From positions 1-64,000 of the IMG/VR virus record IMGVR_UViG_3300028840_002104: DNA of 64,000 bases. One strand, written 5' to 3'. The position numbers and the translations under genes were made by a program. Shown here piece by piece: positions 1,338 through 63,936 of the stretch. A model generated the notes under the pieces. The model worked only from the letters and a program-made list of their open reading frames with translations, searched no databases and was not told the DNA's origin. The number at the start of each line of letters is the position of its first letter. Position 1 is the stretch's first letter. This stretch comes from a virus.

Positions 1338-2558
1338 ATGGAACTAGCAAAGGTTGCTTCAGCCGTTCTGCTTTCTTCTCCAGAAAGTACGGACGATGTT
1401 TGGGTATTTCCTCCTACAGAGGAGAAGGTAACCAGAAGTGGTGCAGCAGGTGACTGGAAAGTCACGAGTGATTCAGGAGAGGTAATGTACCTCACTGACG
1501 CTGAGTGGCTGGATATGCGTCTTTCTGAGGCCCTTATCACGTGGGATCTCACTCTCTATGTCGCCACAACAGGTGATGATGAGTCAGGAGACGGCACTTC
1601 AGCAAATCCCTACCAGTCACCAAACAAGGCAATTGAGGTGGTCACAGGAAAGATTATCTCCAATTGTACGGTTACGATTGAGCTAGCAGACGGAACCTAC
1701 AACACCAATCAGCAGCTAGCAGAACTAGACGTCTATCAGTATGGTCATGTTTCCATTCCTACTTTCATGCTTGTGGATGGAATCAAGACACAGGGATCAG
1801 GTATTCTTAAGATCCAGGCGGAAAATGAGCATGGGGCAACTATTGCACGAGCAAATGCCCTTACAGTAGCTATTCTGAGATCTTCAGGAGTAACCATAGA
1901 CGGCATCAAGATCACTGACGTAGCCAACACAGGCGGAGGAGTAATCCTCTTTCAATCTTCCGAAATTCAGGTCCTCAATAGCCACATTACGGAAGCAGGT
2001 TTTTCAAACAACGGAGCCTGTGTCTATTGCATTGAGGCGGCCAATGTTTTGGTCAAGGGATGCTATCTTTCTGGGTGTGCTGTTGGGGTCTATCAGACAG
2101 GCAATTCCAAAGGCAGTATAGAAGACTGTGAGATCCACGGATGTCTTCGTGCCGTGCACCCAAGGCACTCGTCTTATGCCACGGTCGAATCAGATAATAC
2201 TTCGGGAACTCAGAGAGGCGTGGAAACCATAGAAGATCAAGGAGGTGATGTCTGGAGGGTAACTGTTTCCTCGCCGCCACTGACTCAAGATGAGAAGGAC
2301 TTTTCAGCCTGGGTAAAACTGCTTGACTGTGAAGGTGCTGATGATGGTGTCTACGATGTGACAGGAACAGGCGACGACTACTTTGAAATAGAGGGTGGTG
2401 GTCAAGTGTCCGCTTACGGGTATCCTTCAGGAGATGCCAGAGTCAGTAATCGAGACTTCGGTGTTTATGCAAGTCGAGCCTCTTCAGCTTCCACGGGAAG
2501 TCACACTTTGGTCGGGGAAGCTGATGAAGGTACAGGTTCAGGAGGATACATTGAGTGA
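1338..2558 (+). CDS. Beta-helix virion spike/fibre protein, paralog of upstream gene
   Basis: AGGAGG RBS; LYVATTGDDESGDGTSANPYQS and TIELADGTY motifs; collinear similarity with 1..1328. Confidence 0.6.
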   Translation: MELAKVASAVLLSSPESTDDVWVFPPTEEKVTRSGAAGDWKVTSDSGEVMYLTDAEWLDMRLSEALITWDLTLYVATTGDDESGDGTSANPYQSPNKAIEVVTGKIISNCTVTIELADGTYNTNQQLAELDVYQYGHVSIPTFMLVDGIKTQGSGILKIQAENEHGATIARANALTVAILRSSGVTIDGIKITDVANTGGGVILFQSSEIQVLNSHITEAGFSNNGACVYCIEAANVLVKGCYLSGCAVGVYQTGNSKGSIEDCEIHGCLRAVHPRHSSYATVESDNTSGTQRGVETIEDQGGDVWRVTVSSPPLTQDEKDFSAWVKLLDCEGADDGVYDVTGTGDDYFEIEGGGQVSAYGYPSGDARVSNRDFGVYASRASSASTGSHTLVGEADEGTGSGGYIE

Positions 2559-2856
2559 CTTTCGTTGGTTGGCTGATGCAGGTTCCGCAGGTCTTGTAGT
2601 AATTGCTCTGATTGTAATCTTGAGATGGGTTAGATCCCTCCAGGAAGATATGAAAGAAGCTATGAAGCTTATGGCCAAAGCTGTGGACAAGAACTCAGTC
2701 TCAGTAGTCACTCTTGGGCAGTCGATTGTTGGTTTGGTTACTATTTTGGCCCAGAAGCCCTGTGTTTCGGAAGATCTTCAGGGTCAGGCTACCGCATTGA
2801 TTGAAAAGCTCAAAGAGGCGCAGGAAAACATCATTAGCCAGGGAAATGGATCGTGA
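2551..2856 (+). CDS. Holin-like single-TM membrane protein
   Basis: GGAGGA RBS before TTG 2551; TM segment AGLVVIALIVILRWV followed by coiled coil. Confidence 0.4.
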   Translation: MSDFRWLADAGSAGLVVIALIVILRWVRSLQEDMKEAMKLMAKAVDKNSVSVVTLGQSIVGLVTILAQKPCVSEDLQGQATALIEKLKEAQENIISQGNGS

Positions 2857-3131
2857 GTCCGCCTCTTAAAACTGCCAGGAAGAAGGCTACTAAGAAAGAG
2901 AAGAGCAAGGTACGCAGTTCAAACATTGCGGAGCTTGTTGAGAGCGGGCGACCACAGAAACAGGCTGTGGCCATTGCCTTTTCTCACGAGCGCCAAGTAG
3001 CTAAAAAGAGGAGAAAACAAACCATGGCAAGGAAAAAATCAAGACGTCGTAATTGTGCGAGTAAGCCCAAAGGCATGAGAGGTAAGAAGGTCATTCGGAA
3101 GAAGCTGACCGGTCGCGCCAAGGGATTCTAG
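2853..3131 (+). CDS. Small very basic phage protein upstream of terminase
   Basis: K/R-rich; SSNIAELVESGRPQKQAVAIAFS motif common in phage packaging regions. Confidence 0.45.
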   Translation: MSPPLKTARKKATKKEKSKVRSSNIAELVESGRPQKQAVAIAFSHERQVAKKRRKQTMARKKSRRRNCASKPKGMRGKKVIRKKLTGRAKGF

Positions 3132-53538: not shown

Positions 53539-53567
53539 GGGGAGGTCGTTTCGGCCTCCCCTTTTTT
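53539..53567 (+). terminator. Rho-independent terminator
   Basis: GGGGAGGTCG-TTT-CGGCCTCCCC followed by T6. Confidence 0.85.
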
Positions 53568-53583
53568 GAATGGAGGTATGACA

Positions 53584-54351
53584 ATGGATGCTAGAATTAG
53601 GGCGCTTCTTCTCTTTTCAGGTGGTCTTGATAGCACAGTAGCCTTGTGGCATATCCTGAAAGACCACGATCTTCGGACAGTCTGTCTTCACTTTACCCAC
53701 GGGCTGAAACCTACTCACCATATCACCGATCTATCCGCAATCATCAATGAAGCCAATGATGAGTTCGGAAGAAACAGTGTCACTCTTGAGGTTGTTCATC
53801 TTCCCGACTTTTGGCTAGGTCTTGAGGACTACCAGCCTGAGTGGAGACTGAAAGCAGCCGAAGGCCCTACCAACAGGGAAATTCTCCACGCTCGAAACCT
53901 GGTCTATCTGTCTCTTGCTGTTCCTTACGCCATCCGTTTTGGGGCCAACAATATTTTCACAGGATTTCTCGCTGGTGTTCCTGTCGTCCCACCTGACGCG
54001 ACTCTTCAGTTCTCGGAAATGGCAGAAAAGGTTATCCACGAAGCGATAGGCGAAACTCTTCTAGAGAACTTTGGCGGCCTGGCCGTCATTTCTCCCATGA
54101 TAGCTATGGATAAGCTAGATGTCTGGAAACACGCAGATCAGTTTGGCATTCTAGGTCTTGTCAAGGATCGTGCGTCTAGTTGCAACGCATTCTTCATCAA
54201 TGACCCTGATCTCCTTGTTGCGGAGCATTCTTGGGGATGGGGTTGCGGTAAATGTCAGTCATGCGAAGAAAGGGCGAATTCCTGGGAAGCATTTCAGAAA
54301 ATCAGAAAGGTCGGAGGCAAAGGTGAACAGCAGGGAGAGACAGAAGGCTGA
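53584..54351 (+). CDS. queC: 7-cyano-7-deazaguanine synthase
   Basis: LFSGGLDST, ARNLVYLSLA, C-terminal SC...GCGKCQSCEER Zn motif. Confidence 0.88.
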   Translation: MDARIRALLLFSGGLDSTVALWHILKDHDLRTVCLHFTHGLKPTHHITDLSAIINEANDEFGRNSVTLEVVHLPDFWLGLEDYQPEWRLKAAEGPTNREILHARNLVYLSLAVPYAIRFGANNIFTGFLAGVPVVPPDATLQFSEMAEKVIHEAIGETLLENFGGLAVISPMIAMDKLDVWKHADQFGILGLVKDRASSCNAFFINDPDLLVAEHSWGWGCGKCQSCEERANSWEAFQKIRKVGGKGEQQGETEG

Positions 54352-54922
54352 GAATGCCCTTCGGCGGATGTTCTCAGTTTACCGCGACAAGGACGATATT
54401 CCGCACATAGAGTTTAAGACGACCAGTACGAAAGACACTCCCGCACGTGTAGTTCGTATGTACGAGGAGTTCTTCTCTGCGGAAGAGCCTGACTTCACAA
54501 CCTTTTCCGCTGATGTAGACACTCTTGTCGTTGTTCGGGATATCGAGTTTGTCTCTGTCTGCGAACATCATCTACTCCCATTCTATGGCCGCGCCCATGT
54601 AGGCTACCTGCCAGACGGGAAAATAGCTGGCTTGTCAAAGTTTGGTCGTGTGGTTGACTTCTTCGCCAAGAGGCCGCAGCTTCAGGAAAGAATGACTGAT
54701 GAGACTGCGGAGTATCTTATGAAGAAGCTCAAGCCACGCGCTCTGTGTGTTTATGTGGAAGCCAAGCATACTTGCATGGCTCTGCGCGGAACAAGAAAGC
54801 TCAATTCAACTACGGTTACTCATGCAATTCGAGGGAATGAAGAGAAAGTGCGTTTCGAGGTGAAGCGTGAATTTCTCCAGATGCTAAAAGGAGGTCTGAG
54901 TAATGGTGGCAACAGTTATTAA
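54323..54922 (+). CDS. folE: GTP cyclohydrolase I
   Basis: TPARV, SVCEHHLLPFYG, GLSKFGR, RPQLQERMT, HTCMALRG. Confidence 0.95.
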   Translation: MNSRERQKAENALRRMFSVYRDKDDIPHIEFKTTSTKDTPARVVRMYEEFFSAEEPDFTTFSADVDTLVVVRDIEFVSVCEHHLLPFYGRAHVGYLPDGKIAGLSKFGRVVDFFAKRPQLQERMTDETAEYLMKKLKPRALCVYVEAKHTCMALRGTRKLNSTTVTHAIRGNEEKVRFEVKREFLQMLKGGLSNGGNSY

Positions 54923-55382
54923 GCAACTGAAGTCTCTCTCCCTTGCCCACAAGCTCACTTCTCGTAAGGCGGGAAAGTGTTGTCGTCTACACGGGCATAA
55001 CTACCAAATTACGGTTTTCTATGAGGACGAGGTTGATGAAGAGACTGGCATGGTTCTGAACTTTAGTGAGTTCGACCTTCTTGAGGAGTTTATTTCTTGG
55101 CTTTTTGACCACAGAGCGGTCAAGAAGGCTACCAGGCACACTAAGGATTACTTGGCTTTTCCTTTTGAGCCTACGGCTGAGATGCTGGCCGCCACTATCG
55201 CTTACTCAGCTTTTCTGACGCTCAAGCCTTCAGCTCACGGAGCGATTATGGTGCAGGTGTCTGAAACAGACAGGTGCGCTGCCAGATATCGCTTAGCTTT
55301 AGGAGGGCTTCCGGAGAAGCTAGAGGATTGGATTGTAGACATGCTATCTCGTTTTAGAGTAGGGGGAGTGGCACATGAGTGA
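54903..55382 (+). CDS. queD: 6-carboxytetrahydropterin synthase
   Basis: AHKL..CCRLHGHNY, GMVLNF, FDH, PTAEMLA, VSET. Confidence 0.92.
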   Translation: MVATVIKQLKSLSLAHKLTSRKAGKCCRLHGHNYQITVFYEDEVDEETGMVLNFSEFDLLEEFISWLFDHRAVKKATRHTKDYLAFPFEPTAEMLAATIAYSAFLTLKPSAHGAIMVQVSETDRCAARYRLALGGLPEKLEDWIVDMLSRFRVGGVAHE

Positions 55383-56013
55383 GCGGCTGAAGATTAACGA
55401 CATCTTTCTGAGTATTCAAGGAGAAGGTCAGTATGTGGGGACTCCGATGGTCTTCATCAGATTCGCAGGATGCAATCTTTCCTGTAGCTGGTGTGATACG
55501 GACAAGTATGAGCACTACTGCATGACAGCGGAGCAGGTCTTTAACTATATCAAGACTCTTTGTAACTATCCTAGTTCTATTCCTGTCTGTCTTACAGGAG
55601 GGGAGCCTCTTCTTCAATGGGGATTGGCAATGGAAGAGCTTGCCAACAGGCTTATAGAGAAAGGCTCAGGACTTCATCTTGAGACGAACGGTCTTCTGCT
55701 CGACGGAGAGATTGGTCTAGGTGTTTTTGACTATGTTACGGTTAGTCCTAAGCCCCCCTCTTCAGGCTGCGAAACTCTTGACTACTGGGATAGCTTAGCT
55801 CTCTCTCGCGCTGATGAGTTTAAGGTTGTGATAGCAGATCAGGAGGACTACAATTGGGTTGTTCAGAATGCTTGCTGGTTTGTTGATCGTCCCCTTTTTC
55901 TCCAGCCTTGTGACGGAAGGTCTTCTTTCTCTGATCTCTGGGAGATGTGGCAGAAGAACCCTATCCCCTGTCGGATACTTCCTCAAGTCCACAAGCTCGT
56001 GGGCGTCAAGTAA
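55375..56013 (+). CDS. queE: 7-carboxy-7-deazaguanine synthase (radical SAM)
   Basis: SIQGEG, FIRFAGCNLSCSWCDT, LTGGEP, LETNG, VSPK, QVHK. Confidence 0.93.
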   Translation: MSERLKINDIFLSIQGEGQYVGTPMVFIRFAGCNLSCSWCDTDKYEHYCMTAEQVFNYIKTLCNYPSSIPVCLTGGEPLLQWGLAMEELANRLIEKGSGLHLETNGLLLDGEIGLGVFDYVTVSPKPPSSGCETLDYWDSLALSRADEFKVVIADQEDYNWVVQNACWFVDRPLFLQPCDGRSSFSDLWEMWQKNPIPCRILPQVHKLVGVK

Positions 56014-56502: not shown

Positions 56503-56955
56503 ATGGGTTCGCTCAAGATGGTCACAAAGAGGCGTATTCGCCGCCCTATTTATAGGTATCCAGAGCTTCAGGCTTTGGTAGAGAGCGCGGATATTCACAA
56601 AGGGTCCAAGGTTACGAGGGTCGATAGGTGGAATCGAGAGACACAAGTTCTAGATTTCACTACAGTCGTTGGAGAGCCCTTGTCCCAGGGAAGGAGGTTC
56701 AATACTGTCAAGAGGTTTCTTGTCGAAGTGCCTGTGGTTGTGGTCGAAGGAGATGATGGTTTACCAGTAGCCGCGACACTTCAATCGTTTCCGCCGGATT
56801 ATCGTCTGACAGAAGCGATCATTGTGCCATGGTTAGTCCAGAAAGCCGAGCGCCAGGCGAAGAAGGCGCGGAGGAAAGACCTAGACATTGGTTTGGTCAG
56901 CCAACCGTTTGGGGTGATTACCGCTCAGTATCCAACGTTTGCGAAAAGGAGATGA
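56503..56955 (+). CDS. Hypothetical basic protein
   Basis: GAGGAG RBS. Confidence 0.55.
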   Translation: MGSLKMVTKRRIRRPIYRYPELQALVESADIHKGSKVTRVDRWNRETQVLDFTTVVGEPLSQGRRFNTVKRFLVEVPVVVVEGDDGLPVAATLQSFPPDYRLTEAIIVPWLVQKAERQAKKARRKDLDIGLVSQPFGVITAQYPTFAKRR

Positions 56956-56957
56956 AA

Positions 56958-58052
56958 ATGGTTGAAAAGAAAGATGTGGCTAACATTCTTAGTGGTATTA
57001 TCACTCAGGCTGAGACAATCAAGGATCAGGCTGAGTGGCTTCTCTCTAAGTTTGGTGGCAGCAAGAAAGAGCAGAAGGAATCGCCTGGCGCGAAGTCTGA
57101 AACAAGTCTTCAGGATGAGATGAGAGTCTTTCCCAAGCCTGACGTCATCAAAGAGATGGGCAGAGAGAAGTGCCTGGAGTGGTTTGACGCTCTTGGTCTC
57201 AGCACGGCTGAGCATAAGAACGACTCTCCGTCCAAGCTCCGAACGGATCTCTTGGTCATGGCGGTTGCCATAGATGGTGACAGCTCTTCAAGGCATCATA
57301 AGGTGACTGTTGCTCAGGTGGCCGCGCTCCTGGAATGCGAGGTAGAAGATGAGGACAATAAGACGGTCCTTCTTACCAAGATTGGTGAAGCAATATCTCA
57401 GCGCCTGAACAGCGGACAAGAAGTTGAGGAGGGTCCTGATGAGGAAGAGACAGAAGAAGGCCCTGAAGAAGAAGAAACGCCTTCAGGCGAAGGAGAAGAA
57501 GAGACAGAGGAAGGTCCAGACGAAGAAGAGGAAGAGACACCTGATGACGGCGAAGAGGAGGAAGGCCCAGAAGAAGGCCCGGAAGAAGCGAACTTAGGCG
57601 GAGATTTTGTCCTGAAGCCCAAGTTCATCAAGAAGGCCAAGGAGAGCATAGCTGAAGAGGTGGAGAAAGACAGCAATGCTGTTGCGGAACTAGCTGTTGA
57701 GGCTAAGGTCAACTGGGTTCCCTTCCTGCCTGAAGATGTCCAGAAAGCCGCGCTAGACATGAGCGACGAGGACTTAGTTCTCGCTTTTGAGTGCGCCTTT
57801 GTTGATGATGAGGGAGAAGATCATGACTGGGATGAGGCGTATTCTCATAACGGCACGGTGTTCTGCAATGGCGTTGATGTCAAGGAACATGAAGGTGATG
57901 AGGACTTCACTTGGCATTCAAGCGTAGAGTCGCCGCCAGAGGGCATTGATCCCAGTGACTTTGGAATAGGCGTTTCTCGTGGTTCCGATGAGACTCACTA
58001 CTTCATGATCCATGATGGGAAAATTCTTGAAGTAGAACCCGTGTCAGGCTGA
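56958..58052 (+). CDS. Extremely acidic protein with EEGP(D/E)EEET repeats
   Basis: AAGGAG RBS; Glu-rich tandem repeats encoded at ~57420-57590 and acidic C-terminal domain. Confidence 0.65.
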   Translation: MVEKKDVANILSGIITQAETIKDQAEWLLSKFGGSKKEQKESPGAKSETSLQDEMRVFPKPDVIKEMGREKCLEWFDALGLSTAEHKNDSPSKLRTDLLVMAVAIDGDSSSRHHKVTVAQVAALLECEVEDEDNKTVLLTKIGEAISQRLNSGQEVEEGPDEEETEEGPEEEETPSGEGEEETEEGPDEEEEETPDDGEEEEGPEEGPEEANLGGDFVLKPKFIKKAKESIAEEVEKDSNAVAELAVEAKVNWVPFLPEDVQKAALDMSDEDLVLAFECAFVDDEGEDHDWDEAYSHNGTVFCNGVDVKEHEGDEDFTWHSSVESPPEGIDPSDFGIGVSRGSDETHYFMIHDGKILEVEPVSG

Positions 58053-58075: not shown

Positions 58076-58109
58076 GAGGAGGAAGTCTCTCTTTTGGGGC
58101 TTCCTCCTC
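58076..58109. terminator. GC-rich hairpin upstream of pentamer array (terminator/processing site)
   Basis: GAGGAGGAAGTCTC-TCTTTT-GGGGCTTCCTCCTC, 14-bp stem with two G-U pairs; no clear U-tract. Confidence 0.55.
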
Positions 58110-58154
58110 ACCCCCTAAAAGTTATGCTCAGAGTTATTGCATTTGTTCATAAGG

Positions 58155-58466
58155 GGTTGGGCTTGGCGTGTTGAGGTTGGTTTCGTTCAGGCACGTTTAG
58201 GTTGGTTACGGCTAGGTCTGGTTAGGTTGGCCATGGCGTGGAAAGGTTAGGTTGGCTGTGGTTTGGTAGTGCAGGGTTTGGTCCCTAGTGGGGTCTGTTG
58301 GGTTCAGTTTTGGTTAGGTCTGTTGGGTTGAGGTATGTTCAGTTCTGGCCGGTCATGGCGCGTTGAGTTGCGGTTTGTTTCGTTAAGGCGGGGCGAGCTT
58401 AGGTGTGGTTTGTTTTGGTCCGGTAGGGTCGGTTTGGGTTGGTTGGGTTAAGGTTTGGTATGTCTA
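58155..58466 (+). ncRNA. Non-coding pentamer array (GKY-NN)x61; candidate guide RNA for the adjacent RAMP-like protein
   Basis: Two in-phase blocks (58155-58284, 26 units; 58292-58466, 35 units); G at position 1 in 60/61, pyrimidine at position 3 in 60/61, G/T at position 2 in 58/61; positions 4-5 use all 16 dinucleotides. Confidence 0.75.
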
Positions 58467-58484
58467 CTTGAAAGGATGTGAGTT

Positions 58485-59108
58485 ATGCCAGCAAAGAAAG
58501 TTGCAAAGGTGTTAGGTCCTGAAGTTTCTAACGGTGCCAAGGTTGCTATTGAGTCAGGAATTCCATTTACGCTCAGAGCAAGGGTGCGGGGTGTTTCTCC
58601 AGGTCTCATTATGCATGCTTGGAACTGTGAGGCAATAGCTAATCTTCCAGGCAAAGGCGCAAAGAAGAAGGATGATCTTGAGACTTATGTTCGGCGTGAT
58701 GACGAAGGTTATCTTTGCATTCCAGGTGAGTATTTTAGGGGCTCTATGATTAATGCGGGCAGATCCAGAAAAGATCCCAGATCTTCTAGGAAATCCATGA
58801 TGGATCTTTTGAAGGCGGCAGTTATTCCTCTGACCTATTTGGCTCCTATTAGTCCTAAGTCTAAGGAGTGGCCTAAAGTGCATAAGTGCCGAGCGGTCAT
58901 TCAGCGTTCGGCTATTACTAGAGAACGTCCCTGGTGGCCTGAAGGGTGGGAAGCTCAGATAGACCTTCAGTGTATTATGCCTGAATACGTGAGTCCCACG
59001 GTGTTTCACGACATCTTGGTAGATGCGGGAAGGTTTGTGGGTGTGGCTGACTATCGTCCTACTTACGGTCGTTTTCAGGTTATTCACAGCGAGATTCTTG
59101 AGGACTAG
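58485..59108 (+). CDS. Stand-alone Cas7/RAMP-like RNA-binding protein
   Basis: RVRGVSPGLIMH (RAMP first strand), DDEGYLCIPGEYFRGSMINA (IPGSSLKG-like), C-terminal G-loop GRFVGVADYRPTYGRFQV; no other cas genes nearby. Confidence 0.7.
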   Translation: MPAKKVAKVLGPEVSNGAKVAIESGIPFTLRARVRGVSPGLIMHAWNCEAIANLPGKGAKKKDDLETYVRRDDEGYLCIPGEYFRGSMINAGRSRKDPRSSRKSMMDLLKAAVIPLTYLAPISPKSKEWPKVHKCRAVIQRSAITRERPWWPEGWEAQIDLQCIMPEYVSPTVFHDILVDAGRFVGVADYRPTYGRFQVIHSEILED

Positions 59109-59132
59109 AGGTGTCTTGGTTGTGGCCAAAAC

Positions 59133-59168
59133 GGGGAGAGGGTCGCTTGTGAGAGAGGCTCTCTCCCC
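59133..59168. terminator. GC-rich hairpin downstream of RAMP-like gene
   Basis: GGGGAGAGGGTC-N12-GGCTCTCTCCCC. Confidence 0.5.
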
Positions 59169-59193: not shown

Positions 59194-59472
59194 ATGGCTG
59201 CGAAAGCGGGTCTGAAAGCTAAAGAACACCTGTGGCGGCATAACTACAGGAAGCTTAGCCCTCGTGAGCAGAGGGAAGGGCAGCCTCCGTTCATTGAATG
59301 TTTTCTCTGCGGGAGTTATACTTCTGTTCAGGGTAGAGAATGGGTTCAGATGGCCTCTTTGTCTCCTCGGATGTTGAAGAAAGAGGGTCTAGATGGGTTT
59401 CCTCAGACTCACCTTTTGGTCTGTCGTCTCTGCGAGAGGGATCTTTTGAGATTGGAGAAGTCCTTTGCCTAG
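59194..59472 (+). CDS. Small Zn-finger protein
   Basis: CFLC...CRLC. Confidence 0.5.
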   Translation: MAAKAGLKAKEHLWRHNYRKLSPREQREGQPPFIECFLCGSYTSVQGREWVQMASLSPRMLKKEGLDGFPQTHLLVCRLCERDLLRLEKSFA

Positions 59473-59487
59473 AATCAGGAGAATCTC

Positions 59488-59742
59488 ATGAACATTGAAA
59501 GCTTGAAAGATGCAGAAGCTCATGTGAGGGTTGCTCAAAACATTCTTACGGCTCAAAGGAAAAAGTGTCCCGATGATGGGCCTTACGAAGATTTAGACAA
59601 GGGAATTAAAGCCTGTTCTTGGGTCCTTTCGTCTCTTGAGGATGTGCTTAACGATTTTCCTCGCAAGTACACGTGCTCTGTTTGTGGCGCTATCTTTGAG
59701 CCCTCTTGTCCTGTTTGCGCGATGTATTTGGACGAAGGTTAG
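59488..59742 (+). CDS. Small protein with C-terminal Zn finger
   Basis: CSVC...CPVC; AGGAG RBS. Confidence 0.5.
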   Translation: MNIESLKDAEAHVRVAQNILTAQRKKCPDDGPYEDLDKGIKACSWVLSSLEDVLNDFPRKYTCSVCGAIFEPSCPVCAMYLDEG

Positions 59743-59752
59743 GAGGTCTCTG

Positions 59753-61054
59753 TTGCCTAGAATCTTCTATGCGGGAACTGATGAAGATGAATTCTACAAC
59801 CTATCATGCGAGCAAGGCGTTGATGCACAGCTTGTCTCTTTCTACAAAATGCGGAAATGGCCTGCCCTACTCCGCAAGCGGAAAGAAGAGCATCCAGAGG
59901 TAGACTTCTTTGTTGATTCGGGGGCCTACACGTTTCAGCGAGAAAAGGGTCAAGAGCTTACCCTTGATGATTACGAGCTTTACGCGGAAGAGTACACCAA
60001 GTATCTAGAGACAAACATTGACTGTATATTTGCTGCGGCAGAGCTGGATGTTGAACAGGTTGTAGGGCTGGAGAGAGTGTATAGATGGCAGCGGGAATTG
60101 TTTGCTCCTCTTGAGGATCGCATCCCCATTGTGTATGTCTGGCATCCTTTTCGCGGTCCAGATGGCTGGACAGAGATGTGCAAGCAGCATGAGTATGTGG
60201 GCTTCTCCCGCGACGTCTCGCATGAAGAGCGCGTGAGACTGCTTGCCACAGCGCGGAAATATCTGACCAAGGTCCATGGCTTTGGTATCACTGACTCCAC
60301 CTCTCTGAGAACGCTGAATTGCTATTCCGTGGACTCTCTGACGTGGAAGACTTGTGAGATGTATGGCACTACCTACTATTGGGACGGTTCTACGCTGAAG
60401 GTCTTCGATAAGACGCAGAAAGATCAGAGGCGCAGGTTCAGAGGCCAGTTTGAGACTCTAGGACTTGACTGGGCGGCCATTGAGAATGATGAAAGGCGAG
60501 AGATCACTAGAGCTTCCCTGATGGCCTTTCGTCTCATGGAATTCGCGATGGAGAGGCGGGCGGTCATGGTCCCCTTCTGGGAGTATCGAGTCCCTCCAAG
60601 AGAGCTGAGCCCTGAAGACATCTCGAAGTGGGCAGAGAAGTTTGGCTGGAAGAATGCTGAGTTTGATGATTCTGAAGAGGACAAGTTCTATGTGAGTCTT
60701 GTCCAGGCTGTGCAGAACAACTGGGGACTTGAAGACTATGATCCAGAGGATCTGGCAGAAGGTCTTGGCTGGCTTCTGAAGAGTCACGGGAAAGTCACGA
60801 GTGATCCTCACGACGCGGCGATTTATGACAAGATTCGGGTGAAGATGAATGATTGCTTGGTGCCGAAGAAGACATTCGCGGTGCCGAGGACTTCAAATGA
60901 GGTATTTCTAGACAGGTTCCCAAAGCCTAGAGCAAGGTCTTTAGAACCTACTGACTACAATACTTTGGACTGGCGAGAAGTGGATAAGAACATGGCTGCG
61001 GCGCTAGATGCAGGTGTCCGCGAAACGATGGAGGATTCTGATGGGCTTTTCTGA
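59753..61054 (+). CDS. dpdA: DpdA-like DNA guanine transglycosylase (TGT fold) with C-terminal extension
   Basis: FFVDSGAYTF, ELDV, VWH, KVHGFG, YSVDSLTW motifs; preQ0 pathway encoded nearby. Confidence 0.72.
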   Translation: MPRIFYAGTDEDEFYNLSCEQGVDAQLVSFYKMRKWPALLRKRKEEHPEVDFFVDSGAYTFQREKGQELTLDDYELYAEEYTKYLETNIDCIFAAAELDVEQVVGLERVYRWQRELFAPLEDRIPIVYVWHPFRGPDGWTEMCKQHEYVGFSRDVSHEERVRLLATARKYLTKVHGFGITDSTSLRTLNCYSVDSLTWKTCEMYGTTYYWDGSTLKVFDKTQKDQRRRFRGQFETLGLDWAAIENDERREITRASLMAFRLMEFAMERRAVMVPFWEYRVPPRELSPEDISKWAEKFGWKNAEFDDSEEDKFYVSLVQAVQNNWGLEDYDPEDLAEGLGWLLKSHGKVTSDPHDAAIYDKIRVKMNDCLVPKKTFAVPRTSNEVFLDRFPKPRARSLEPTDYNTLDWREVDKNMAAALDAGVRETMEDSDGLF

Positions 61055-63766: not shown

Positions 63767-63936
63767 TGGCCTGTGGCTGGCCTGTGTCAGGCCCTGGCAG
63801 GCCCTGTGGCCTGTGGCTGGCCTGTGTCAGGCCCTGGCAGGCCCTGTGGCCTGTGGCTGGCCTGTGTCAGGCCCTGGCAGGCCCTGTGGCCTGTGGCTGG
63901 CCTGTGTCAGGCCCTGGCAGGCCCTGTGGCCTGTGG
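63767..63936. repeat. Perfect 40-bp tandem repeat, 4.25 copies
   Basis: Unit TGGCCTGTGGCTGGCCTGTGTCAGGCCCTGGCAGGCCCTG, no spacers. Confidence 0.95.

What the first reader, a model, noticed from the sequence alone, without database searches (positions are those of the whole stretch)
58076..59168. Candidate phage RNA-guided system: (GKY-NN)n pentamer array plus a lone Cas7/RAMP-like protein
Seen: a 312-nt non-coding, strand-biased array with strict 5-nt phase ends 18 nt before the ATG of a 207-aa gene. That protein has RAMP/Cas7 hallmarks (first strand RVRGVSPGLIMH, IPGEYFRGS corresponding to IPGSSLKG, terminal G-loop GVADYRPTYGRF). Two GC-rich hairpins (58076-58109, 59133-59168) bracket the pair like a self-contained cassette; there are no cas1/2/5/6/8/10 genes and no CRISPR repeat-spacer array. 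Established: Cas7-family RAMPs polymerise along guide RNA with a fixed nucleotide step per subunit. Inference: each subunit grips one constant GKY triplet and displays the variable NN, so the array is a guide whose specificity is spelled non-contiguously, possibly silencing competing phages/MGEs or host defence genes without a nuclease. From memory this resembles recently reported phage 'VIPR'-type systems (RAMP protein plus GGY/NN RNA). That match is unverified, and the frequent GTY triplets here would be a variant.
Basis: partly seen in the sequence, partly recalled or inferred. Interest (0 to 1): 0.97.

Follow-up and report, generated by a model that had tools for sequence, protein, structure and literature searches.

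The report
Phage VIPR guide array and protein
This phage carries a clear new example of a VIPR system, the CRISPR-like RNA-guided DNA silencer first described in 2026: one Cas7-like protein plus a 61-unit pentamer guide array that is unusually rich in G-T-T units, with targets still unknown.

Summary
At 58155-58466 there are 61 in-phase G-[G/T]-Y-N-N pentamers on the + strand. They form two blocks of 26 and 35 units, separated by a 7-nt joint that shifts the phase by +2. The array ends 18 nt before a 207-aa gene, and it is the only such array in the complete 85.8-kb phage.

In 122 of 133 distinct relatives' loci, pentamer arrays sit next to the gene on the same strand. I also tested the published code on this clade. 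Its guides match other loci only under the 1-nt-skip rule: 573 strong matches against 6-7 in each control. Matched runs are 9-16 units long. The skipped base falls on the codon wobble position in 84% of cases, and rival vipr genes are among the targets.

This is a new member of a published kind. This scan has already noted such loci in at least 338 other genomes.

Features specific to this locus:
- 36% G-T-Y units, against a clade maximum of 20%
- unique thumb residues W150-W151
- no 3' tail
- no accessory gene

No target of its own guides was found.

The parts
58076..58109 (+). Upstream GC-rich hairpin (10-bp perfect stem, 14-nt loop), 24 nt after the stop of the preceding 407-aa gene. Left border of the cassette. 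No T-run follows, so it is not a classic intrinsic terminator.
   Evidence: (I4)
58110..58154 (+). 45-nt leader between the hairpin and the array. A promoter is presumed here but none was found by the sigma-70 scan.
58155..58284 (+). vrRNA array block 1: 26 pentamers G-K-Y-N-N in one phase, probably about two guides of 10-13 units.
   Evidence: guide length inferred from clade matches
58285..58291 (+). 7-nt joint (CTAGTGG) that shifts the pentamer register by +2. Likely boundary between guide RNAs.
   Evidence: boundary role is inference
58292..58466 (+). vrRNA array block 2: 35 pentamers, G at position 1 in 35 of 35, T at position 2 in 17 of 35. Probably about three guides. Units 1-5 and 6-10 are a diverged 25-nt duplication.
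58467..58484 (+). 18-nt spacer with the ribosome-binding site (AAAGGA). The array therefore lies in the 5' leader of vipr, with no room for a 3' tail.
   Evidence: similar AAGG..GGTGA..ATG spacing in relatives L003, L035, L058
58485..59108 (+). vipr gene: 207-aa single-RRM RAMP protein (Vipr homolog). Strand 1 spans residues 28-36, helix 1 spans 81-94, the thumb hairpin 131-151 and the G-loop 186-196.
59133..59168 (+). Downstream GC-rich hairpin, 25 nt after the vipr stop. Right border of the cassette.
   Evidence: I1

Best explanation
This is a VIPR (Viral Interference Programmable Repeat) system of a complete 85.8-kb phage from a marine sediment or seawater metagenome. It consists of one vipr gene and one guide array in the gene's 5' leader, and nothing else.

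Proposed mechanism:
1. The array and vipr are transcribed together from the + strand. This is inferred from the 18-nt gap and the flanking hairpins.
2. Vipr protomers coat the RNA, one per pentamer. By homology to the SUSP1 cryo-EM structures, they hold G1 (with H44 tentatively, and D189), position 2 (R148 and Y190) and Y3 (E82, Y83, R191). N4 and N5 are left exposed.
3. The 61 units are used as about five guides of 10-13 units. This is inferred from the clade's matched runs of 9-16 units. The +2 register shift is probably one boundary.
4. Each ribonucleoprotein binds double-stranded DNA whose sequence reads NNxNNx..., skipping every third base, and represses transcription. No nuclease or accessory gene is present, so silencing rather than cutting is expected.
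5. The likely targets are genes of rival mobile elements in the same host, as found for this clade. The actual targets of this array remain unidentified.

Steps 2 and 4 are shown experimentally only for SUSP1 and P. fulva VIPR. Here they rest on homology and on my clade-level test of the code.
For: Protein:
- phmmer's best PDB hit is the SUSP1 Vipr protein 36pp_D.
- A 30-sequence profile hits it at E 1.3e-9 over 131 of 208 positions. The next hit is at E 1.6.
- The AF2 model (pLDDT 83) matches Csm3 and type VII Cas7 with Foldseek E about 1e-6.
- R148, D189, R191 and H44 are invariant in 107 clade members (H44 in 106 of 107, one unresolved). R148, D189 and R191, with E82, align to SUSP1 R138, D177, R179 and E71.

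Array:
- 61 phased units, the only such array in the genome.
- Its RNA folds no better than shuffles, z -0.33, as expected for a single-stranded guide.

Family:
- At least 373 homologs.
- In 133 distinct loci, same-strand arrays lie immediately upstream and/or downstream in 122. Only 12 + strand arrays lie elsewhere and only 4 are on the opposite strand.

Code test on 224 clade arrays against 2 Mb of loci:
- Windows with at least 18 of 20 NN matches: 573 with 1-nt skip, 6 with the reversed control, 7 with skip 0 and 7 with skip 2.
- All 573 lie in other loci, none in the array's own locus.
- Matched runs are 9-16 units.
- The skipped base is at codon position 3 in 209 of 249 cases.
- Inside rival vipr genes it is at position 3 in 60 of 61.

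Tolerance of GTY: inside 41 clade guides, the NN of GTY units match targets as well as those of GGY units, 46 of 48 against 464 of 512.

No self-target exists in the phage genome. The phage is complete, with a 144-bp terminal repeat.
Against: - No RNA data exist for this phage, so transcription, processing and binding are unshown.
- No convincing target was found for any of its guides.
- 22 of 61 units carry T at triplet position 2. In SUSP1, changing that G to A abolishes silencing (fig. S12 legend).
- There is no 3' tail, unlike type II vrRNAs, and no vap gene.
- No sigma-70-like promoter was detected upstream of the array.
- The VIPR type (I-VII) could not be assigned, because the classification is in figures and data files that are not held.
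Confidence: 0.92

Rival explanations
1. A decaying or inactive VIPR relic. The protein is a Vipr, but the array has drifted (36% G-T-Y units) and no longer forms working guides. That would explain why no targets are found.
For: SUSP1 GGY>GAY abolishes silencing. The T fraction at position 2 is 36%, against a clade median of about 5% and a maximum of 20%. No target turned up in eight collection scans (and relatives searched in 64, 65).
Against: - G1 is kept in 60 of 61 units, and phase is kept over 26 and 35 units.
- Position 2 is G or T in 58 of 61 units and never A. Random decay would not produce that.
- The ORF is intact, with every key contact residue conserved.
- Clade guides with GTY units still match their targets in register.
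- The target searches needed exact seeds and the phage has no relatives in the collections, so a blank is weak evidence.
Confidence: 0.06
2. The array is mainly a cis-regulatory leader. The RAMP protein binds its own 5' UTR to control its own translation, with no trans DNA targeting.
For: The array ends 18 nt from the start codon and abuts the ribosome-binding site. No targets were found.
Against: In relatives the same kind of array also lies downstream of the gene, or 1 kb away behind other genes. Those arrays match foreign genes under the skip rule. A pure autoregulatory leader would not need 61 units with all 16 NN dinucleotides. Autoregulation could still exist alongside guide function.
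Confidence: 0.015
3. A fragment of a class 1 CRISPR-Cas system (a lone Csm3/Cas7) next to an unrelated G/T-rich simple repeat.
For: The best solved structural matches are Csm3 and type VII Cas7.
Against: - The phage has no Cas1, no Pfam RAMPs match and no CRISPR-like repeats.
- Sequence homology points to Vipr, not to any Cas7.
- The repeat is tied to the gene across 122 of 133 loci.
- The step is 5 nt, not 6 nt.
Confidence: 0.005

Closest known systems
VIPR systems (Vipr protein plus vrRNA), defined on Escherichia phage SUSP1 and a Pseudomonas fulva prophage (type II). bioRxiv 10.64898/2026.04.26.720920, .720927 and 10.64898/2026.10.15.759431; PDB 36pp.
   Same: - Phage-encoded, with a protein of about 200 aa (single-RRM RAMP with thumb and G-loop).
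- Same-strand pentamer array with a constant triplet and variable NN.
- No CRISPR array and no cas genes.
- Contact residues conserved: D189, Y190, R191 correspond to D177, W178, R179. R148 corresponds to R138. E82 corresponds to E71.
- The clade obeys the 1-nt-skip rule with wobble alignment and targets rival elements, including their vipr genes.
   Different: - Only distant in sequence: a single-sequence search gives E 0.03, and a profile is needed to reach E 1e-9.
- One continuous 61-unit array in the gene's 5' leader, instead of separate ~100-nt vrRNAs of 9-16 repeats.
- No 3' tail or pseudoknot.
- No vap gene.
- 36% of triplets are G-T-Y rather than G-G-Y.
VIPR variants with tail-less 'staggered' arrays and with non-canonical pentamers (fig. 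S17-S18 legends of 10.64898/2026.04.26.720920; 21 clusters with GAC/NN, CAC/NN, WGT/NN, TGH/NN in 10.64898/2026.10.21.760802).
   Same: Long uninterrupted arrays in which one guide ends where the next begins. Departures from strict GGY.
   Different: Here canonical GGY and G-T-T units are mixed within one array, rather than a different fixed triplet throughout. A G-K-Y pattern is not among the variants named in the texts I could read. I could not see the figures.
Class 1 CRISPR backbone subunits Csm3/Cas7 (types III and VII; e.g. 6xn3_F, 6ifn_E, 8yhe_F).
   Different: 5-nt step instead of 6-nt. Three guide bases are hidden per step instead of one. No repeat handle, no Cas10, Cas5, Cas6 or Cas1-2, and no CRISPR array.
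Phage DSL-LC04 (OR003939.1), gene WJZ48083.1, annotated 'helix-turn-helix transcriptional regulator'.
   Same: The nearest homolog in an isolated, named phage (45% identity over 98% of the protein). It has about 50 pentamer units in the 320-nt gap upstream of the gene.
   Different: Its triplets are mostly canonical GGY. Its host is recorded as Gammaproteobacteria. The public annotation misses the system.

Membership tests
VIPR system | Protein homologous to an experimentally validated Vipr | tested here: met
   A profile of 30 clade members hits SUSP1 Vipr (36pp_D) at E 1.3e-9, covering profile positions 71-201 and chain residues 57-188. The next PDB hit is at E 1.6. The single-sequence hit has E 0.031 and is also the top hit.
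VIPR system | Adjacent same-strand tandem pentamers of the YNNGG / GGY-NN type (at least 4 units) | tested here: met
   61 units at 58155-58466. 34 are strict GGY, 22 are GTY and 5 are other. The array lies 18 nt upstream of the gene.
VIPR system | Strict GGY constant triplet | tested here: not met
   Position 2 is T in 22 of 61 units and C in 3. The papers allow 'a related consensus' and internal degeneracy, so this marks a variant rather than an exclusion.
VIPR system | The protein-array association is conserved across relatives | tested here: met
   122 of 133 distinct homolog loci carry flanking same-strand arrays.
VIPR system | Guides recognise DNA by the 1-nt-skip rule (NNx), with skipped bases mostly on codon wobble positions and no self-targets | tested here: met
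   Met for the clade. 573 matches against 6-7 in each control, none in the array's own locus, and wobble alignment in 209 of 249. For this window's own array only the absence of self-targets could be shown.
VIPR system | Identifiable natural target of this locus's own guides | tested here: inconclusive
   The exact-seed scans and local mismatch-tolerant scans gave only hits that chance explains.
VIPR system | Conserved 3' tail capping each vrRNA (type II feature) | tested here: not met
   The array runs to 18 nt before the ATG. There is no Rfam hit and no excess RNA structure. The closest relatives are also tail-less. The published text indicates that array architecture varies by type.
VIPR system | Accessory gene (vap) next to vipr ('typically') | tested here: not met
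   None of eight neighbouring proteins has a homolog in any of the 147 loci. There are no Pfam, NCBIfam or PADLOC hits for the flanking small proteins.
VIPR system | vrRNAs are expressed and co-purify with Vipr, and silencing is programmable | not testable with these tools
   No RNA run holds this DNA. Wet-lab work is needed.
VIPR system | Assignment to one of the seven published types | not testable with these tools
   The types are defined in figures and data files that are not held as text.
Class 1 CRISPR-Cas (type III/VII Cas7 backbone) | CRISPR repeat-spacer array and partner cas genes (Cas1/2, Cas5, Cas6, Cas10 or Cas14) | tested here: not met
   The 85.8-kb phage has no Cas1, no Pfam RAMPs hit, no CRISPR-like repeats and no Rfam CRISPR-DR.
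TIGR-Tas | About 18-nt alternating repeats with a Nop-domain Tas protein | tested here: not met
   The period is 5 nt. The protein fold is RAMP/Csm3.

The most novel reading that the evidence does not exclude
This Vipr has a remodelled pocket for the second triplet base. It carries W150-W151 in the thumb, next to the G2-contacting arginine, where 105 of 107 clade members have alanine. It also has Y190 in the G-loop. Such a pocket might accept U as well as G, making a natural G-K-Y code variant. That would show the constant triplet can be re-specified by a few residues. A second, weaker possibility: because the array is the 5' leader of vipr, coating of the leader by Vipr feeds back on Vipr translation.
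Probability: 0.25. Interest if true: 0.45.

Novelty: new member of a known kind. Interest (0 to 1): 0.3.

Why it matters
VIPR is a newly described way of reading DNA with RNA, and it has been proposed as the ancestor of the CRISPR backbone proteins. This locus adds a compact, self-contained example: array plus one gene in about 1.1 kb, with no accessory gene and no tail. It sits in a complete phage that also carries a 7-deazaguanine DNA-modification pathway.

Its mixed GGY/GTT array, together with the unique thumb residues, gives a concrete and testable lead on how strictly the constant triplet is read.

The clade-level analysis done here independently reproduces the published 1-nt-skip code on a distant Vipr clade. 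That code includes wobble alignment, avoidance of self, and targeting of rivals' vipr and replication genes. The result supports the generality of the code. None of this changes the picture of what VIPR is.

Tried and rejected
1. Targets of this array.
- Own genome: no run of six or more perfectly matched units under skip 0, 1 or 2. The best 10-unit window scored 17 of 20.
- Homolog loci: the maximum is 16 of 20, the same as the controls.
- IMG/VR seed, block 2 units 23-30: 6 hits, none extends.
Flank matches follow a binomial distribution and fall in unrelated proteins.
- A 22 of 24 match of block 1 units 8-19 in L208: 1 of 300 unit-order shuffles reached the same score, but the skipped base is not at wobble.
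- IMG/VR seed, block 1 units 8-16: 8 hits, all from one conserved gene of 36%-GC phages. They match 18 of 18 and then fall to random, with the skipped base at codon position 2. I judge this chance.
- IMG/VR seed, block 1 units 1-8: 10 hits, none extends.
- Metagenome seed, block 2 units 1-10: five near-identical contigs plus one unrelated. In the five, the match lies antisense in a 758-aa hybrid sensor kinase gene, with the skipped base at codon position 1. There is no second guide hit on those contigs and no similarity to the phage. This is about the number chance predicts.

2. Relatives of the phage, to scan as likely rivals. The DpdA-like protein finds none. polA finds only relatives of 24-29% identity, and 32% at best among isolated phages.

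3. Expression. No RNA holder is listed. The two DNA holders give identical 85,564-bp contigs. They may be the source data, so they are not independent and show no variation.

4. Known models. No hit for the protein in Pfam, NCBIfam or PADLOC. The only hit is PHROG 4652 (unknown function), at E 3e-12. No Rfam family, including no hammerhead.

5. AT pressure as the cause of the GTT units. Rejected. T at position 2 does not rise in low-GC loci (rho +0.20), whereas T at position 3 does (rho -0.69).

6. Y190 alone as the cause. Rejected. L124 has Y at this position and no T at position 2.

7. Supplementary tables of the VIPR paper for type assignment. None is held.

Full report
**What is in the sequence.**
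Between the stop of a 407-aa acidic protein gene (58052) and a 207-aa gene (58485-59108) lies a non-coding stretch that is 79% G+T. Read in fives, it resolves into G-[G/T]-[C/T]-N-N units on the + strand. A simple scoring scan finds two in-phase blocks: 58155-58284 (26 units) and 58292-58466 (35 units). A 7-nt joint between them moves the register by +2.

Over the 61 units:
- position 1 is G in 60
- position 2 is G in 36, T in 22 and C in 3
- position 3 is T in 47, C in 13 and A in 1
- positions 4-5 use all 16 dinucleotides

Shuffles of the same composition never come near the observed scores (maximum 6.5 against 16 and 32.5). No other such array exists on either strand of the whole 85,818-bp genome. 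The array ends 18 nt before the ATG, directly against the ribosome-binding site. They rank first and fourth among the short-range inverted repeats found in 40-64 kb.

**The protein.**
Pfam, NCBIfam and PADLOC give nothing. PHROGs gives only family 4652, of unknown function. Against all PDB chain sequences, the best hit of the single sequence is "SUSP1 Vipr protein" (36pp_D). The hit is weak (E 0.031), but it runs through the C-terminal G-loop.

The protein has at least 373 relatives of about 50% identity in metagenomes, IMG/VR contigs and Planctomycetota, cyanobacterial and other genomes. A profile of 30 of them hits 36pp_D at E 1.3e-9 over 131 positions, with nothing else below E 1.

The structure paper names the SUSP1 residues that hold the triplet. 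Through the HMM alignments they map as follows:

| SUSP1 residue | Contact | Residue here |
|---|---|---|
| D177 | G1 | D189 |
| W178 | stacks on G2 | Y190 |
| R179 | Y3 | R191 |
| R138 | thumb, G2 | R148 |
| E71 / M72 | Y3 pocket | E82 / Y83 |

R148, D189, R191 and H44 are invariant in the 107 clade members that could be scored (H44 in 106 of 107, one unresolved). Mapping H44 to SUSP1 H17 is my guess from its position after strand 1. The alignment does not reach that far.

**What is known.**
VIPR systems were reported in 2026 (bioRxiv 10.64898/2026.04.26.720920; structures in .720927; biology in 10.64898/2026.10.15.759431; recovered independently in 10.64898/2026.10.21.760802).

The papers state:
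- Vipr is a minimal RAMP, found mostly in phages and proviruses.
- vrRNAs hold 9-16 YNNGG repeats, followed in type II by a structured tail.
- One protomer binds one repeat, hides GGY and exposes NN.
- The NN pairs read double-stranded DNA while skipping every third base.
- Natural targets are rival mobile elements, mostly in coding sequence with the skipped base at wobble.
- The outcome is transcriptional silencing.
- There are seven types, which differ in array architecture (separate, staggered, ribozyme-spaced, single) and in accessory vap genes.
- Non-canonical pentamers exist.

**Tests of family membership beyond homology.**
I fetched 147 loci around relatives, 133 of them distinct. Same-strand pentamer arrays lie directly upstream, downstream or on both sides of the gene in 122. 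Only 12 + strand arrays lie elsewhere in the ±4 kb, and only 4 are on the opposite strand.

I then tested the published code on this clade itself. I took 224 arrays of at least 10 units (5031 units in all). I compared them with the array-masked loci (2.0 Mb, both strands) in 10-unit windows.

| Reading of the array | Windows with ≥18 of 20 NN matches |
|---|---|
| 1-nt skip | 573 |
| Same arrays read backwards (control) | 6 |
| No skip | 7 |
| 2-nt skip | 7 |

All 573 hits lie in loci other than the array's own. About 4 self-hits would be expected if hits fell at random. The hits collapse to 252 array-target pairs with matched runs of 9-16 units and a median of 10. The best is 30 of 32 NN bases.

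The skipped base is at codon position 3 in 209 of 249 pairs, and in 60 of 61 pairs that fall inside rival vipr genes. Targets pile up at fixed places in the conserved prophage module AAA_24 – DUF669 – vipr – RusA – helicase.

So this distant clade follows the SUSP1 rules. Its long arrays are head-to-tail strings of ~10-13-unit guides. Several guides start at the first unit or end at the last unit of an array.

**What is particular to this locus.**
1. *No accessory gene.* None of eight neighbouring proteins has a homolog in any of the 147 loci. The two small Cys-rich proteins downstream have no family.
2. *No tail.* The array abuts the ribosome-binding site. Its RNA folds no better than shuffles, z -0.33. 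No Rfam family matches. The closest relatives (L003, L010, L035, L058) have the same tail-less long arrays.
3. *Triplet position 2 is T in 36% of units.* With position 2 left free in the detector, the 107 clade loci with at least 20 units reach at most 20% T. In the earlier G/T-restricted scan the median was 4.6%.
   - AT pressure does not explain it. T at position 2 does not rise in low-GC loci (rho +0.20), whereas T at position 3 does (rho -0.69).
   - The published SUSP1 mutant GGY>GAY is dead, so this matters.
   - Two observations argue that the GTT units are tolerated rather than decay. Position 2 is G or T in 58 of 61 units and never A, while G1 and the phase are kept. And inside 41 clade guides with predicted targets, the NN of GTY units match the target as well as those of GGY units, 46 of 48 against 464 of 512.
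   - The protein has W150-W151 in the thumb, two residues after the G2-contacting arginine, where 105 of 107 relatives have alanine. It also has Y190 where 99 of 107 have phenylalanine. A remodelled pocket is a hypothesis, not a finding. One relative with Y190 has no T at position 2.
4. *Internal duplications.* Both blocks contain diverged 25-nt (5-unit) duplications. This hints that arrays grow by local duplication.

**Targets.**
I could not identify what this array is aimed at. There is no self-target and no match in the homolog loci. The phage has no relatives in IMG/VR or among isolated phages that could be scanned as likely rivals.

The public collections can only be searched with exact patterns, so I used six NNx seeds. 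Every hit either fails to extend or is a single gene family matched at the rate chance predicts:
- One is a conserved gene of 36%-GC phages, matched 18 of 18 by block 1 units 8-16, with the skipped base at codon position 2.
- Another is a bacterial hybrid sensor kinase gene, matched 20 of 20 by block 2 units 1-10. The match is antisense, with the skipped base at codon position 1 and no second guide hit nearby.

I do not count either as a target.

**Context.**
The genome is a complete phage: 85,818 bp, a 144-bp terminal repeat, 48.6% GC, and every ORF of 250 aa or more but one (an overlapping one) on one strand. It comes from a sediment or seawater metagenome. The cassette sits between queC-folE-queD-queE and a DpdA-like transglycosylase (PHROG 887, E 7e-35), the 7-deazaguanine DNA-modification genes. 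I see no functional link between the two. Watson-Crick pairing by the guides should not be affected by that modification.

**Verdict.**
Both the observation and the interpretation stand. The thing is already a published kind, and this scan has noted it in at least 338 other genomes. The locus is therefore a new member of a known kind. It has one modestly interesting variant feature, the mixed GGY/GTT triplets with unique thumb residues, and its targets are unknown.

Noticed in passing
window 63767-63936: A perfect 40-bp tandem repeat of 4.2 copies at 100% identity (unit TGGCCTGTGGCTGGCCTGTGTCAGGCCCTGGCAGGCCCTG). It is the only sequence in the genome with 18-mers present three or more times. 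Its function is unknown; it could be iterons or a protein-binding array.
   Followed up: partly
window 53566-56013 and 59642-61054: queC, folE, queD and queE homologs lie upstream, and a DpdA-like transglycosylase (PHROG 887 'queuine tRNA-ribosyltransferase', E 7e-35) lies downstream. Together they bracket the VIPR cassette, so the phage probably modifies its DNA with a 7-deazaguanine.
   Followed up: partly
window 59194-59472 and 59488-59742: Two small proteins (92 and 84 aa) with paired CxxC motifs, like zinc ribbons, lie directly after the cassette. They have no hit in Pfam, PHROGs, NCBIfam or PADLOC and no homolog beside any other vipr gene. There is no evidence that they are accessory (vap) genes.
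   Followed up: partly
window 56829-58052: A 407-aa protein with a long Glu/Asp-rich middle region lies directly upstream of the cassette. No family was found.
   Followed up: no
L001 2433-6972 and about 50 similar loci: In many prophages of this Vipr clade the gene sits in a fixed module: AAA_24 ATPase, DUF669, vipr, RusA, DEAD/ResIII helicase. The clade's guides are aimed at these same genes, and at vipr itself, in other prophages.
   Followed up: yes
L422 (Phage DSL-LC04, OR003939.1) 2183-3115: The only close homolog in an isolated phage is annotated 'helix-turn-helix transcriptional regulator'. It has about 50 GGY-NN units in the 320-nt gap upstream, so it is an unannotated VIPR system.
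   Followed up: partly
L398-L405 (eight IMG/VR contigs, 36% GC): Block 1 units 8-16 match 18 of 18 NN bases in one conserved gene. The local peptide is ...KLPIVPNYIASCFLKIAEGL... The match does not extend, and the skipped base is at codon position 2. Judged chance.
   Followed up: yes
L406-L409, L411 (metagenome contigs, 47-50% GC): Block 2 units 1-10 match 20 of 20 NN bases, antisense, in a 758-aa hybrid sensor histidine kinase gene (peptide LDISEIKMTQ). The GC content equals the phage's. There is no wobble alignment and no second guide hit. Judged chance, but worth a look if the host turns out to be such a bacterium.
   Followed up: yes
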